64,000 nt of DNA from a virus (lineage: Duplodnaviria > Caudoviricetes), in the IMG/VR virus record IMGVR_UViG_3300033066_001295, positions 64,001 to 128,000 of that record. One strand, given 5' to 3'. The position numbers and the translations under genes are program-made. The notes under the pieces were generated by a model. That model did no database searches, was not told the DNA's origin, and worked only from the letters and a program-made list of their open reading frames with translations. Shown one piece after another: positions 31,347-37,945 of the stretch; the stretch's first letter is position 1, and each line of letters opens with the position of its first letter.

Positions 31347-31737
31347 TTGGAAGCTTCACTGTTTTGTTAGTTCCGGGCTTCCATCCAAAGCACATGTCAA
31401 TTATGTTTTGCATGTCACCTTCATTGATGGCTGATAGCATTCTCGTCCCGAGTCTGCCCTTGGCGTAAAACTTGATTTTGGAAAGGCGATTACCAAACTC
31501 CTTCGTAAGGTCTGGAGTATCCAATAGAGGGATAGGTGGTCCGAACTTGAGATCACCGAGAGTGTCCACGGGTGAAAAAGTCATTTCTGGCTGACTTCAC
31601 AGCCAACTCTTCCTTGCCTCCCAAGCTCTTTGTCAGCTTGAAGAAGACCACTTCAGCAGGGCAGGTGACAACACCATTCTTGCCTGAGTATCGCACCCAG
31701 TACCAGCCTTCAGTTTTAGGCGTCTTCTTGGACCACT

Positions 31738-32070
31738 TCATGCGGCGGCAGCGACTGGTTGCTTTGCTTCGACACGGATCACGTTGTAGGTGTAGATTTC
31801 CCACTTGGACCACACCAGCTTGCCGTCCTCATCCTCATCGTTGGCGACATAAGCAACCGTTTTGCTGAGCTTGGCAGGACGCGTACCTTGGCCGGGTCCA
31901 TCACCGCAGTAGAGCGTGTGTGTGGCACCACGATCAGCAGCCCAGTCATTAGGGGGACCGTCGAAGAATGTGTGGTACTTTTTGAATTCCTTCTCACGAA
32001 CGACCGTGTAACCACGGTTGGAAAGTTCAGCGTAGAAGGGAGATTTTGAATTTGGAAAGTCGTAGGCCAT
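31738..32070 (-). CDS. Hypothetical protein
   Basis: Start MAYDFPN at 32070 set by the promoter. Confidence 0.65.
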   Translation of the reverse strand: MAYDFPNSKSPFYAELSNRGYTVVREKEFKKYHTFFDGPPNDWAADRGATHTLYCGDGPGQGTRPAKLSKTVAYVANDEDEDGKLVWSKWEIYTYNVIRVEAKQPVAAAA

Positions 32071-32077
32071 GGTAATT

Positions 32078-32105
32078 AATATATCGAAAGTCAGTGTTTT
32101 GTCAA
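32078..32105 (-). promoter_or_regulatory. Early promoter (conserved-spacer class)
   Basis: TTGACAAAACACTGACTTTCGATATATT-N7-ATG. Confidence 0.75.
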
Positions 32106-32755
32106 TCAATCAATATGTAGAATCGTTTCCAGAGGCACCACTGACTCATTTGAACATTTCTCTGATTCAGCAGATGATCTACTGGTAAACACACGAGCAT
32201 TTTGTAGGCTCGAATCATAAGAGCGTTTGCTACCTAATGGAGTCATGAACTTACCATCTTCACGTCTGATAACAAAAAGGTTCATGGTTAGTAATCGAGC
32301 CTGAGTTCATCAAACGTCACTGCAAAGGACGGGTAGTTCCTCACCAGAAAACTGCGCAACAGCTTGGCGTTTGCGTTTGAGTTGACCGGTGGCAGAGACA
32401 AAAGCTCAGCCGTGTAGGCAGAGAAGGAAGCACGCTCAGCAGCGGCTGATTCACTCTTTGGCTGGTAGCCTTGGTTGTTGAGATCATTCATAGGGCTGCA
32501 ACTTGCTGTTCGATTTGCCACTCTTCAAGAGACTGGCCGAAGCGGGTTTCCATGCTGAAGTCAGCCACGAAGTCGGGGGTGAGAAACCCAAGCTCAAGCT
32601 GAAGCTTATCGTCAAGGCTCTCCAGCGTGTTGGAACTTGAACTGTCACTGTTGTAACGAGCGACATAGACAGCGTCACGCAGGGCGCGAACTTCGTCGTC
32701 AGAGAGGTGGAGGATGATGGTGTTGTTGTTCATGGTGGTGTAGTGGTGCGAGTTG

Positions 32756-33205
32756 TTAAGCCAAGACCGGCGCGTTGTTCAGGTAGGCGTCAGGGACGAC
32801 AATCTCAGGGTTCTTCTTGAAGAACTCCACGGTCCTCTTGAGGGAGCCGAAGAAGTCGCGGAAGGTGATGTTCTCGACCACCCAGAGGGCGACTTCCTGT
32901 GACACCTCGTACCAGCCGAAGCTCTCACAGATGAAGTAGCGACCGTCAACACAAACCACATCTCCACAGGAGAGGGAGCGAAGCTTGAGGCCACAGTGGG
33001 AAGCCCACTCCGTGCCGTCCACATGATTGCACTGACGAAAGATGGTATCAAGAGCTTGCTCTGGAGCCAGACCTTCGATCAGGTTGTCAGGGAAAGCGTA
33101 AGTGAGAGTGACGCCTTCAAGAGCCTCATATGTTGAACCCTTGTGGGCGAGGAGGCAAAGAACTTTAGCGCGAGTGGAACCGGTGGTGGTGTTGGTGGTG
33201 CTCAT
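32756..33205 (-). CDS. YodL-like domain protein
   Basis: LDTIFRQCN...RSLSCGDVV..DG.YF.C.SFGW. Confidence 0.6.
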   Translation of the reverse strand: MSTTNTTTGSTRAKVLCLLAHKGSTYEALEGVTLTYAFPDNLIEGLAPEQALDTIFRQCNHVDGTEWASHCGLKLRSLSCGDVVCVDGRYFICESFGWYEVSQEVALWVVENITFRDFFGSLKRTVEFFKKNPEIVVPDAYLNNAPVLA

Positions 33206-34075: not shown

Positions 34076-34450
34076 TCAAATATCGAGTAAATCTACAACA
34101 CTGCCAGCCAGTTCATGGGAGCAATCATCAAGAAATTGAACTTTCCCGTCGTTCACCCATGTATGGCAAATAATCCAGTCGATGTCCAGAGTCTCGCCTG
34201 CCATTGCCTTGGCATACTCTTCATTTGTCATGTCTCTCACTTTCTTTGTGAGGATGCTCGGTCGAAGTGTTGGCTTCTCTATATCACCATTCCACGTCCA
34301 GCTATTTGTGCCTTCACGTTGACCTTTGAGAATAACAGGAAGTATTCGTTGAGGGATTGGACCGGGCATCTTCAATTCCACAAAGGAGGCCTCTTCTGGA
34401 GGGCACTCAACCCACTCACCATTTTCACGCCTGACTGGTTTAGCTTTCAT
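34076..34450 (-). CDS. DUF6527-like protein
   Basis: WTWNGDIEKPTLRPSIL...CHTWVNDGKVQFLDDCSHELAG. Confidence 0.7.
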   Translation of the reverse strand: MKAKPVRRENGEWVECPPEEASFVELKMPGPIPQRILPVILKGQREGTNSWTWNGDIEKPTLRPSILTKKVRDMTNEEYAKAMAGETLDIDWIICHTWVNDGKVQFLDDCSHELAGSVVDLLDI

Positions 34451-34680
34451 GACTAAAGTTCATATAGAATATCATTCCAGTAGGTCCATCCAATGGTTGA
34501 ACCTTCACCAGTTCTGCTGCTATTAGTTCCGGGTAAACTTCCCTGATAATGCAGGAAAAGTAGCCTCTACGAAGTTTAGTTGCAACCACTTCAGGGCATG
34601 TGGCAATAGCTATCGAGGCTATTAGTGAACCAAAGAATCTTCGAGGCTATTAGTGAACCAAAGAATCTTCGTCTTGTCAT
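34440..34680 (-). pseudogene. Mini-gene: twin-arginine-like leader plus T4 gp23 major-capsid (Gol region)-like peptide, frameshifted by a 28-bp duplication
   Basis: Removing one repeat copy gives 70 aa: MTRRRFFGSLIASIAIATCPEVVATKLRRGYFSCIIREVYPELIAAELVKVQPLDGPTGMIFYMNFSHES. Confidence 0.7.
34613..34668 (+). repeat. Perfect 28-bp tandem duplication
   Basis: TCGAGGCTATTAGTGAACCAAAGAATCT x2. Confidence 0.97.
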
Positions 34681-35062
34681 TCTATCAGATGTTGAACAGT
34701 TCCATGGAGTGGTCCAAAAAAACAGGGAACCCAATCGGACAGGCTGTTTGACATGACAGGTCTTCCGCCGCTGTCACGATCTACAATAGCTGTGACGTGA
34801 GGTACTTTATTGGTGCTATCATCAGCACCCTCGACTTTGAAAGCTGCCACAAGGCCATTACTGGAACGTGCTGACACATTGAGGCTTCTCCTCTGACCGG
34901 CAGTGCCTATGTGGTCTCCAAAGGTAAGTGTGCAGTGGTGGCAGACAAGTTCCCCCTTCATTTGAGGGAAGCACTTTGAGGCATATGCCTTCAAAGCCTG
35001 CTGTGAGGCATCATCGAGAACAATGGCTGTCCATTTCTTGCCCTCAAATAACCTTGAAACAT
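34677..35062 (-). pseudogene. 2H phosphoesterase with a frameshifted N-terminus
   Basis: HCT and HVT motifs; the ATG at 35062 needs one extra T to give MFSRLFEGKKWTAIVLDD. Confidence 0.6.
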
Positions 35063-37030: not shown

Positions 37031-37945
37031 TCATCGAGGTGCGTTCACCATGACTGGATCAATCCAGATGGTTTTGATACTGACGTTGCCCTTACCATAG
37101 TGCTGTTCTCGATAGTGGCCAATGCGCCAGTGGGTTTCAGGAGAAGCATGGGTGCCTGTCACTTCTGATTGAAGAGCGTACCTTCGTCCCAAAAACCTTG
37201 GTGTCCAGAACTCCCTTTGACCATGTTTACCCTTCACCCTCTTGATGAAGGACGCCTCCTCTACATTCTCGGGTCGCAGGTGAAACAACATCACCAGTTG
37301 TAATAGGAGGGGGATAAGCTGTCCTTGAGTGAACACAGTCACCTTGGCAGGGTCTTCACCAATATCCCATTTTGACTTGTGTGTTTCAATTTTCGATTCG
37401 AGGTCAATAACACCATCCTCAATAGGGATGAAGGCATACCAGTTGGTCTGGCTGGTTACTGATGTGGCAGTGCAGAGAAGACGATCCTCCTTTGAGTGTG
37501 ACTGCAAGCCTATGCCAAGATTGAGCAGGTCTCCGGGTGATACAATGGAGATGGACATCACCGCCACATCTTCACCATCATCACCTTTCAAAACACCTTT
37601 AGGGAGAACGAAATGAATACATGGAAAACCAAGTTTTACTTCATTGCGATCCCAATACTTCGGTGGGGTTGTCTTGAGCAGTGCCTTGAGGATATTGGGT
37701 GAGACAAGATAGAAGGGGTAGTCACACTTCTCCGCCATCATAGTGGAGACATAGGCTGGCAGTGCTTCCTCCTTCAGTGAAGGATCAATCTTCAAGATTT
37801 GTGGCACAGCAAAGCCATCAGCGAACACCTGCCTCAGAGAAGTGAGGGAGTGATACTCAGGAGGGAATTCAAAGGTCTTGTGGCACCATCGGTCGAAAGA
37901 CTTGATAGTCTTGCGTGCTGAGTCAATGAGGGCTTCTGGCTTCAT
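37031..37945 (-). CDS. Phage hypothetical protein
   Basis: C-terminal HASPETHWRIGHYREQHYG...WIDP motif. Confidence 0.75.
   Translation of the reverse strand: MKPEALIDSARKTIKSFDRWCHKTFEFPPEYHSLTSLRQVFADGFAVPQILKIDPSLKEEALPAYVSTMMAEKCDYPFYLVSPNILKALLKTTPPKYWDRNEVKLGFPCIHFVLPKGVLKGDDGEDVAVMSISIVSPGDLLNLGIGLQSHSKEDRLLCTATSVTSQTNWYAFIPIEDGVIDLESKIETHKSKWDIGEDPAKVTVFTQGQLIPLLLQLVMLFHLRPENVEEASFIKRVKGKHGQREFWTPRFLGRRYALQSEVTGTHASPETHWRIGHYREQHYGKGNVSIKTIWIDPVMVNAPR

What the first reader, a model, noticed from the sequence alone, without database searches (positions are those of the whole stretch)
34440..34680. Hidden mini-gene encoding a stand-alone T4 gp23 Gol-region-like peptide, switched off by a 28-bp duplication
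Seen: this apparent gap in the ORF track contains a perfect 28-bp tandem duplication (34613-34668). Collapsing it restores a 70-aa ORF that overlaps both neighbours: MTRRRFFGSLIASIAIA...IIREVYPELIAAELVKVQPLDGPTGMIFYMNF. Established (sequence from memory): T4 major capsid gp23 contains VRRAIPNLIAFDICGVQPMNSPTG, the Gol region that binds EF-Tu and triggers the Lit protease. The pattern R...P.LIA.....VQP...PTG..F is matched here. Inference: an isolated capsid epitope on a twin-arginine-like leader could be a decoy for capsid-sensing defences, an EF-Tu modulator, or an inhibitor of competitor capsid assembly. The duplication could be a reversible switch. The peptide also suggests a T4-like capsid elsewhere in the genome.
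Basis: partly seen in the sequence, partly recalled or inferred. Interest (0 to 1): 0.8.

Follow-up and report, generated by a model that had tools for sequence, protein, structure and literature searches.

The report
Broken export-tagged capsid-fragment mini-gene
A large uncultured T4-like phage carries a small gene that joins a bacterial twin-arginine (Tat) export-type leader to a copy of the most conserved stretch of its own head-shell protein; the gene belongs to a widespread family I found described in no paper, and in this genome it is knocked out of frame by a fresh 28-base duplication.

Summary
A perfect 28-bp tandem duplication (34613-34668) frameshifts a minus-strand gene. Removing one copy gives a 70-aa ORF that is tightly coupled to both neighbours. 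That 70-aa protein occurs letter for letter in two other assemblies, and a 69%-identical form occurs in a third. All three have one copy of the 28-mer and the same gene order.

The C-terminal half matches Pfam Gp23 above its cut-off. As a family profile it matches T4 gp23 residues 86-134 (E 1e-11), which contain the Gol stretch. The N-terminus is a Tat-type leader. The phage's real 471-aa capsid gene lies 66 kb away, outside the window.

The gene is not an orphan. About 60 protein clusters from large uncultured phages share the leader plus the motif, and all are annotated as hypothetical. I found none in 50,697 cultured-phage records.

The same leader also occurs on other capsid fragments, so the common theme is a piece of capsid protein rather than Gol and EF-Tu specifically. 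This scan has noted the same design on other DNA; my results agree with those notes independently.

The reversible-switch idea is unsupported. Only 1 of 4 related sequences has the duplication, and the gene next to it is also frameshifted. The duplication is a recent null allele or an assembly artefact. The function is untested; my best guess is an envelope-directed mimic of the capsid N-arm.

The parts
34440..34680 (-). Mini-gene locus as it stands: 241 nt, made of a 213-nt gene plus the 28-nt duplication. The ATG is at 34680-34678 and the stop at 34442-34440.
   Evidence: One-copy orthologues in L004, L005 and L006 give an intact 70- or 75-aa protein.
34613..34640 (.). Copy 1 of the 28-bp tandem duplication
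   Evidence: The unit is bounded by a 3-nt microhomology (TCG on the + strand), which is why TRF counts 2.1 copies.
34641..34668 (.). Copy 2 of the 28-bp tandem duplication, absent from three related sequences
   Evidence: Alignment A1. The gaps against L004 sum to 28 nt.
34591..34680 (-). Truncated product of the broken allele: 29 codons. The first 13 residues are the start of the Tat-type leader (TRRRFFG...). The rest is out of frame up to a TGA.
34440..34589 (-). 49-codon GTG frame that holds the rest of the gene without its leader. The GTG starts 1 nt after the stop of the truncated frame, so re-initiation is conceivable but not shown.
34452..34550 (-). Segment homologous to the N-arm / Gol region of T4-type major capsid proteins (residues 35-67 of the repaired protein)
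   Evidence: PF07068 at 32.6 bits. It is 61% identical over 33 aa to the phage's own capsid protein, residues 85-117. The family profile matches T4 gp23 residues 86-134 at E 1e-11.
34677..35062 (-). Upstream coupled gene, 128 aa in relatives, with two HxT motifs. Here it lacks 1 nt near its start, at about 35056.
34076..34450 (-). Downstream coupled gene of the DUF6527/BubE family, 124 aa
   Evidence: PF20137 at 30.1 bits and phrog_3362 at E 5.7e-22. The same neighbour follows the mini-gene in L004 and L006.

Best explanation
This is a real accessory gene of a roughly 208-kb T4-like phage, caught in a broken state.

In its intact form, as seen in three relatives, it encodes a 70-aa precursor with two parts. 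The first is a twin-arginine (Tat) type signal peptide: T-R-R-x-F-F-G, a short Ala/Ser/Ile-rich core, then A-I-A before T-C. The second is a passenger of about 50 aa that copies the N-terminal arm of the mature T4-type capsid protein. This is the stretch that contains the Gol region in T4.

In this genome a 28-bp tandem duplication, bounded by a 3-nt microhomology, shifts the frame after codon 13. The leader is therefore cut off from the passenger. I read this as a recent loss-of-function allele, or possibly an assembly artefact, and not as a regulated switch.

How the intact protein works is inferred, not shown. It sits among early-type accessory genes. The leader would take it to the Tat translocase at the inner membrane. 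The passenger has no confident fold of its own and keeps the same conserved residues as the capsid protein. It most likely acts as a competitive mimic of the capsid N-arm, occupying a partner that would otherwise meet that arm.

My odds for the partner:
- a host factor that senses or binds the capsid protein, about 0.3
- the phage's own capsid or scaffold, about 0.2
- an envelope target unrelated to capsid binding, about 0.2
- EF-Tu as in T4, about 0.1
For: Anatomy. The duplication and the repaired ORF are confirmed. The ATGA overlap and the 11-nt overlap show the one-copy frame fits the operon exactly.

Real gene.
- The 70-aa protein is found at 100% identity on a 63.5-kb Logan contig and on a 909-bp JGI contig.
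- A 69%-identical 75-aa form lies on a third contig.
- All three have one copy and the same downstream DUF6527 gene.
- Between the 86%-identical relatives, codons 44-70 have 6 synonymous and 3 non-synonymous differences. A crude dN/dS is about 0.2.

Family.
- phmmer against 1.84 billion representatives gave 57 hits at E <= 1e-3. Almost all were 66-170 aa.
- 24 aligned members have invariant RR and a nearly invariant F at +2.
- A profile search found about 60 clusters covering both leader and motif, on contigs up to 261 kb.
- All 24 aligned members hit PF07068, and 8 of 24 hit TAT_signal and TIGR01409.

Homology to Gol. The profile matches T4 gp23 residues 86-134 at E 1e-11. In T4 this N-terminal region is disordered inside the unexpanded head and becomes the external arm and N-fist (PMC9546572). 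It is also the most conserved part of gp23 (PMC3014915).

Match to the phage's own capsid. 14 of 17 residues from VQP onward equal the phage's own capsid protein. The 13 other capsid variants I compared match at 10 of 17 at most. Nine of the 14 shared residues use different codons, so this is not a recent copy.

Context. In four genomes the neighbours are small accessory genes, not head genes.

Loss rather than switch. The upstream gene also carries a 1-nt deletion relative to L004, and L005 calls the same intact 128-aa gene there.
Against: - Export has not been shown.
- P0001 itself does not reach the TAT_signal models; only 8 of 24 relatives do, and weakly.
- Several members have Pro just after the likely cleavage site, so the leader may stay on as an anchor.
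- The AlphaFold2 model is of low confidence (pLDDT 69, motif as coil). It says little either way.
- No partner has been identified.
- The match-to-own-capsid test rests on one genome and 14 capsid variants.
- I cannot check reads, so the duplication could be an assembly artefact. From my memory, 28 equals k-1 for k = 29, a common assembler setting.
Confidence: 0.7

Rival explanations
1. The duplication is an assembly artefact, for example an unmerged overlap. The phage in nature has the intact 70-aa gene.
For: The two copies are perfectly identical. Apart from the duplication, the gene differs from L004 and L005 by one synonymous base. From my memory, 28 = k-1 for k = 29, so an overlap that was not merged would give exactly this.
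Against: SNP density against L004 shows no break at the duplication, so there is no sign of a chimeric join. The copies are bounded by a 3-nt microhomology, as expected of replication slippage. The neighbouring gene has an independent 1-nt frameshift, which fits real decay of this small operon.
Confidence: 0.25
2. One reading: the 28-bp duplication is a reversible on/off switch for a Gol-like peptide that modulates EF-Tu or Lit-type capsid sensing.
For: A perfect tandem duplication can be lost again by slippage or recombination. The passenger is homologous to the T4 Gol region. In T4, Gol binds EF-Tu and activates Lit (PMC3014915).
Against: - Only 1 of 4 related sequences has two copies, and none has three.
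- The repeat is a unique 28-mer, not a repeat tract.
- The adjacent gene is also broken.
- A free Gol peptide activates Lit in T4, so it would harm the phage rather than protect it.
- The leader points away from the cytoplasm, where EF-Tu is.
- The same kind of leader carries a non-Gol capsid segment elsewhere.
Confidence: 0.07
3. The gene is a functionless remnant of a partial capsid-gene duplication.
For: It covers only about 33 of the 376 profile positions of Gp23. In this genome it is indeed broken.
Against: About 60 clusters keep the same two-part design with invariant RR-x-F. The motif is under purifying selection. Synonymous sites against the phage's own capsid gene are saturated, yet the peptide is kept. 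Gene boundaries are exact in the relatives.
Confidence: 0.04
4. The intact protein works on the phage's own head assembly. For example, it could tether or time early capsid-protein assembly at the inner membrane by docking where the N-arm docks.
For: The passenger equals the N-arm, which in T4 contacts the scaffold in the prohead and neighbouring subunits after expansion (PMC9546572). Its C-terminal half tracks the phage's own capsid variant.
Against: The gene lies far from the head genes, among accessory genes. It is missing from complete related genomes such as G006 and G008, and it is broken here. It is therefore dispensable.
Confidence: 0.2

Closest known systems
Gol region of T4 gp23 (about residues 93-122) and the e14 Lit protease / EF-Tu exclusion system
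   Same: The passenger is homologous to this exact stretch: the family profile matches T4 gp23 residues 86-134 at E 1e-11. In T4, a 29-residue peptide from this stretch is active on its own (PMC3014915).
   Different: In T4, Gol is part of the capsid protein and not a separate gene. It acts in the cytoplasm. Here the segment is a stand-alone gene behind an export-type leader. EF-Tu binding and Lit activation are untested, and the phage has no Peptidase_U49 match.
T4-type major capsid protein gp23 and its vertex paralogue gp24 (Pfam PF07068, HK97 fold)
   Same: The sequence matches the family above Pfam's cut-off. Like gp24, it is an extra capsid-derived gene alongside the main capsid gene.
   Different: It is only 70 aa and covers profile positions 11-43 of 376. 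It has no P or A domain, so it cannot form a shell. It also carries a signal peptide, which no capsid protein has.
Twin-arginine (Tat) signal peptides of bacterial exported proteins (Pfam PF10518, TIGR01409)
   Same: It has the S/T-R-R-x-F-L-K type motif at the N-terminus, a mildly hydrophobic Ala/Gly/Ser-rich core and an A-x-A site.
   Different: The leader is phage-encoded and very short (n-region of 1-4 residues). The passenger is a peptide of about 50 aa with no predicted fold or cofactor, unlike typical Tat cargo.
Hepatitis B virus precore protein / e-antigen (an analogy from general knowledge, not homology)
   Same: A virus makes a second, signal-peptide-bearing version of its capsid protein that goes to the secretory route instead of into capsids.
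   Different: It is an animal virus using the Sec/ER route, and the whole core domain is exported rather than a fragment. It acts on adaptive immunity, which has no counterpart here.
Tat-leader plus capsid- or portal-fragment mini-proteins noted earlier in this scan on other phage genomes
   Same: The design is the same: a Tat-type leader followed by a short piece of the phage's own head protein.
   Different: Those copies are intact. This one is frameshifted by a 28-bp duplication, and here it is coupled to a DUF6527/BubE-family gene.

Membership tests
Pfam PF07068 Gp23 (T4-type major capsid protein) | Match to the family model above the gathering score | tested here: met
   32.6 bits against a cut-off of 24.4 for the 49-aa frame. 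The repaired 70-aa protein scores 31.3 bits.
Pfam PF07068 Gp23 (T4-type major capsid protein) | Full HK97-fold body (P domain, A domain, insertion domain; about 450-520 aa) able to form capsomers | tested here: not met
   The match covers only profile positions 11-43 of 376, and the protein is 70 aa. The genome's real capsid protein is a separate 471-aa gene.
T4 Gol peptide | Sequence homology to gp23 residues about 93-122 | tested here: met
   Profile A2 matches T4 gp23 (6UZC, 5VF3) at residues 86-134 with E about 1e-11.
T4 Gol peptide | Binds EF-Tu domains II/III and licenses Lit to cut EF-Tu | not testable with these tools
   The host is unknown and there is no binding assay. The literature basis is PMC3014915.
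Tat (twin-arginine) signal peptide | N-terminal R-R-x-F-[LF] motif followed by a mildly hydrophobic core and a short c-region | tested here: met
   The motif here is T-R-R-R-F-F-G, followed by S-L-I-A-S-I-A-I-A and then T-C. RR is invariant and F nearly invariant in 24 relatives.
Tat (twin-arginine) signal peptide | Recognition by the curated models PF10518 / TIGR01409 | tested here: inconclusive
   8 of 24 family members hit each model (best E 0.005 and 0.0017). P0001 itself does not.
Tat (twin-arginine) signal peptide | Tat-dependent export | not testable with these tools
   This needs reporter fusions in wild-type and tat-mutant hosts.
Undescribed family: Tat-type leader plus capsid N-arm mini-proteins | Leader and Gp23 motif in one short protein, alignable end to end | tested here: met
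   Full-length matches to proteins of 66-124 aa. See also alignment A2 and the profile search.
Undescribed family: Tat-type leader plus capsid N-arm mini-proteins | Intact reading frame | tested here: not met
   In this window the frame shifts after codon 13. The frame is intact in L004, L005 and L006.
Phase-variable (contingency) switch | Hypermutable repeat tract with several copy-number alleles among close relatives | tested here: not met
   The repeat is two copies of a unique 28-mer. Three relatives have one copy and none has three.
Phase-variable (contingency) switch | Both alleles present within one population | not testable with these tools
   No reads are available.

The most novel reading that the evidence does not exclude
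Tat-tagged fragments of the phage's own capsid protein are a counter-defence device. Early in infection they present the conserved capsid segments that host immune sensors recognise. They bind those sensors without triggering them. Through the Tat leader they then hold the sensors at the membrane, or carry them out of the cytoplasm as piggy-back cargo, before the real capsid protein is made. The broken copy here would then mark a lineage whose host lacks the sensor.
Probability: 0.15. Interest if true: 0.9.

Novelty: new variant of a known kind. Interest (0 to 1): 0.6.

Why it matters
The Gol stretch is the most conserved part of T4-type capsid proteins, and it is a classic trigger of abortive infection. 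Why it is so conserved remains open. A stand-alone copy with an export leader, kept by many large uncultured phages, shows that this stretch, like other capsid pieces, has been reused for a job outside the capsid.

If the job is immune evasion or control of head assembly, it would be a new way for phages to use their own structural proteins. It would also give a small, easily expressed tool for probing what binds the capsid N-arm.

For annotation, such genes should not be called "major capsid protein" fragments or pseudogenes.

For this genome, the practical result is that the gene is currently non-functional, or else mis-assembled.

Tried and rejected
- **Complex prediction.** I ran the mature capsid protein (residues 69-471, alignment A3) with the passenger (residues 19-70, alignment A2). 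The verdict was "no answer", score 0.00. It counts neither for nor against binding.
- **AlphaFold2 of the 70-aa protein with the family alignment.** pLDDT was 69: three helices, with the motif as coil. That is too weak for a fold search.
- **ESM Atlas look-up.** No usable hit.
- **IMG/VR scan with the family alignment.** Single-protein scans gave mostly short contigs without the capsid gene. I could therefore test whether the mini-gene tracks its own phage's capsid only in this genome.
- **Large metagenome contigs carrying family members.** These are not held for whole-record search.
- **Cultured phages.** tblastn of P0066 found 1984 records, but these were capsid genes. None covered 80% or more of the query. 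DNA of the region has no match in the phage collection.
- **Literature.** Searches on the Gol region, on twin-arginine with capsid, and on capsid decoys found no description of this design.
- **Lipoprotein reading of A-T-C.** Rejected, because Thr before the Cys does not fit a lipobox and other members lack the Cys.
- **Outer-membrane beta-signal or SurA-type aromatic motif.** Rejected, because the aromatic pattern is not conserved across the family.
- **Ribosome hop across the duplication (as in T4 gene 60).** Considered, but there is no supporting signal.
- **Phage-encoded Tat or Lit components.** There is no TatA above the cut-off and no Lit-type peptidase in the phage.
- **Promoter scan.** Nothing above the shuffled expectation near the gene.
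- **AcrVA2-like label.** The relative's 304-aa neighbour carries this precomputed label. hmmscan on the window's copy did not reproduce it.

Full report
**1. The observation**

The region was read directly. Tandem Repeats Finder gives one array at 34613-34671: period 28, 2.1 copies, 100% identity, score 118. The two 28-mers are identical, and it is the only perfect tandem duplication in the window.

All genes here run on the minus strand. As the sequence stands, an ATG at 34680 opens a frame that reads the first 13 residues of a leader. It then runs out of frame to a TGA after 29 codons. One base later a GTG opens a 49-codon frame that ends at 34440.

Removing one copy joins the two frames into a 70-aa ORF. 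Its ATG overlaps the upstream gene's stop as ATGA. Its last 11 nt overlap the start of the downstream gene at 34450. So the one-copy version fits the operon exactly.

**2. The gene is real and the one-copy form is ancestral**

A search with the repaired 70-aa protein found the identical protein (P0001) and a 69%-identical 75-aa protein, P0002.

- P0001 is encoded on a 63.5-kb Logan contig (L004, about 95% nucleotide identity to the window) and on a 909-bp JGI contig (L005).
- P0002 is encoded on a third contig (L006, about 86% identity).
- All three have one copy of the 28-mer. The window differs by a clean 28-nt insertion (alignment A1; gap sum).
- In L004 and L006 the gene is followed by the same DUF6527-family gene. 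L005 ends just after the mini-gene.
- Between L004 and L006, codons 44-70 carry 6 synonymous and 3 non-synonymous differences. The linker is almost completely replaced, and a crude dN/dS for codons 44-70 is about 0.2. The leader and the motif are what selection keeps.

**3. What it encodes**

The C-terminal half matches Pfam Gp23 above its cut-off (32.6 bits against 24.4; profile positions 11-43 of 376) and PHROG 138, "major head protein".

The window is bases 64001-128000 of a 207.8-kb IMG/VR virus record. The true 471-aa Gp23-family capsid gene lies at 31729-33144 of that record. The mini-protein is 61% identical to residues 85-117 of it.

A profile of the mini-protein family matches T4 gp23 in the Protein Data Bank at residues 86-134 with E about 1e-11.

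According to the T4 head structures, residues 66-105 are disordered and face the scaffold in the unexpanded head. They later become the external arm and "N-fist" (PMC9546572). [quoted passage not shown]

The N-terminal 18 or so residues read as a Tat-type signal: T-R-R-R-F-F-G, an Ala/Ser/Ile core, then A-I-A before T-C.

**4. It belongs to a large unnamed family**

- phmmer of P0001 against 1.84 billion representatives gave 57 hits at E <= 1e-3. Nearly all were 66-170 aa, and many align over the whole query.
- Twenty-four members with a leader were aligned (A2). RR is invariant, F at +2 is nearly invariant, and the VQP...GP...F core is kept.
- A profile search found 198 short proteins. About 60 clusters cover both leader and motif. 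They lie on contigs up to 261 kb, and every one is named "hypothetical" or unnamed.
- All 24 aligned members hit PF07068. Eight of the 24 hit Pfam TAT_signal and eight hit TIGR01409, the expected weak scores for so short a model.
- PHROGs has no family covering the leader-plus-motif design; its hits span only the motif.
- In 50,697 cultured-phage records, a family member finds only capsid genes. No record covers 80% of the query.
- Four literature searches found no description.
- In three other large contigs the gene sits among small accessory genes, not head genes. Those neighbours include NAD-salvage, NADAR, polynucleotide kinase-phosphatase and a T7 gp5.9-like protein.

**5. The theme is capsid fragments, not Gol alone**

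This genome has only one other ORF with a Tat-type leader, a 136-aa protein outside the window. Its residues 37-63 resemble residues 281-307 of the phage's own capsid protein, in the spine-helix region. This was the third-best non-self hit of the capsid protein against all six-frame segments of the genome (E 0.09). The phage's own capsid was the best hit among 76 capsid proteins. The evidence is weak taken alone.

It gains weight from a complete 224.7-kb IMG/VR phage (G006). Its 92-aa protein has a leader 90% identical to that of family member P0078. Its passenger, however, matches Gp23 profile positions 142-196 at 51 bits and is most like capsid proteins of its own clade. A third phage (G008) has the same leader on an unrelated 35-aa passenger.

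A leaderless 161-aa protein in this genome also carries the Gol-like motif.

Earlier notes of this scan describe the same design on other genomes, including portal fragments. I reached the reading before seeing them and confirm it for this genome and for G006.

**6. The passenger tracks the phage's own capsid**

From VQP onward, 14 of 17 residues equal the phage's own capsid protein. For the 13 other capsid variants in hand, the figure is 10 of 17 at most. Nine of the 14 shared residues use different codons. This is long-kept similarity rather than a recent copy. With one genome and few comparators, it is a lead and not proof.

**7. The duplication: switch, loss or artefact**

- The unit is bounded by a 3-nt microhomology, as replication slippage would leave.
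- Only the window has it; three relatives do not.
- Against L004 the window has three other uncompensated indels. One is a 1-nt deletion at about 35056, at the very start of the upstream coupled gene. L004 and L005 both call that gene intact at 128 aa.
- Two hits within 400 bp look like decay of a dispensable pair of genes, not regulation.
- SNP density shows no break at the duplication, so there is no sign of a chimeric join.
- I cannot see reads, and 28 is k-1 for k = 29 (from my memory), so I keep an artefact at about 0.25.
- A programmed switch has nothing in its favour beyond the fact that any tandem duplication can revert.

**8. How it probably works**

What is shown:
- the two-part design;
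- its conservation;
- its homology to the capsid N-arm;
- its accessory-gene setting.

What is inferred:
- The leader takes the precursor to the Tat translocase.
- The passenger has no confident fold of its own (pLDDT 69, motif as coil) but keeps the capsid's conserved residues. It therefore acts as a mimic of the capsid N-arm toward some partner.
- The leader and the non-Gol classes make a cytoplasmic EF-Tu role less likely.
- In T4 a free Gol peptide triggers Lit, so a simple "decoy" would need to bind without activating.

Capsid proteins are known triggers of several defences (PMC13728456). This is why I rank a host sensor first among the partners, but with low confidence.

A complex prediction with the capsid protein gave no verdict.

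**9. Verdict**

The gene is a broken member of an undescribed but widespread family of export-tagged capsid-fragment mini-proteins, and its function is unknown.

Noticed in passing
window 34677-35062 (-): In relatives the upstream coupled gene is 128 aa, starts M-F-T-R-L-F-E-G and has two HxT motifs, with a weak hint of a 2H phosphoesterase (tRNA_lig_CPD, E 0.31). The window lacks 1 nt at about 35056, so only a 105-aa TTG frame remains.
   Followed up: partly
window 34076-34450 (-): The downstream coupled gene belongs to DUF6527/BubE (PF20137 at 30.1 bits; phrog_3362 at E 5.7e-22). BubE was recently shown to be a Ser-His peptidase of bacterial ubiquitination-like (Bub) operons (bioRxiv 10.1101/2024.11.21.623953). 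A phage copy could undo host tagging. I did not check its catalytic residues.
   Followed up: partly
same genome, outside the window: G000 156739-157149 (-) = L014:1216-1626: A 136-aa protein, the genome's only other ORF with a Tat-type leader. Its residues 37-63 resemble the phage's own capsid protein at residues 281-307 (spine-helix region). The 112-aa ORF just upstream ends in an F-N-K-F-A-Y-P stretch resembling capsid residues 78-84; that match is not significant.
   Followed up: partly
same genome, outside the window: L003:1225-1710 (-): A 161-aa leaderless protein. It starts with a Gol-like motif (PF07068 at 19.5 bits, below the cut-off) and ends with F-D-K-F-S-F-P, which resembles the capsid stretch that lies just before the motif. 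The order is permuted relative to the capsid protein.
   Followed up: partly
L025:2001-2279 (IMG/VR G006) and L030:2001-2180 (G008): Two complete large phages have small proteins with a leader about 90% identical to that of family member P0078 and the same K-x-G-S tail, but different passengers. One passenger is a capsid segment (Gp23 profile positions 142-196) and the other is unrelated. This looks like cassette swapping inside a fixed leader-and-tail frame, next to tRNA-like sequence.
   Followed up: partly
proteins P0027, P0028, P0035, P0039, P0049: A second, leaderless class of short stand-alone Gol-motif proteins. They end in W-K/L/Q/R-x-E-G-F, and their motif variant is the one seen in cyanophage-like capsid proteins.
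   Followed up: no
window about 26378 and about 31566: Two further uncompensated indels relative to the 95%-identical relative L004 (-10 nt and +1 nt). They probably change the ends of two small genes.
   Followed up: no
window 37031-37945 (-): The orthologue of this 304-aa gene in L004 carries a precomputed AcrVA2-like Pfam label (PF26125). hmmscan against the local Pfam copy gave no hit for the window's protein.
   Followed up: partly
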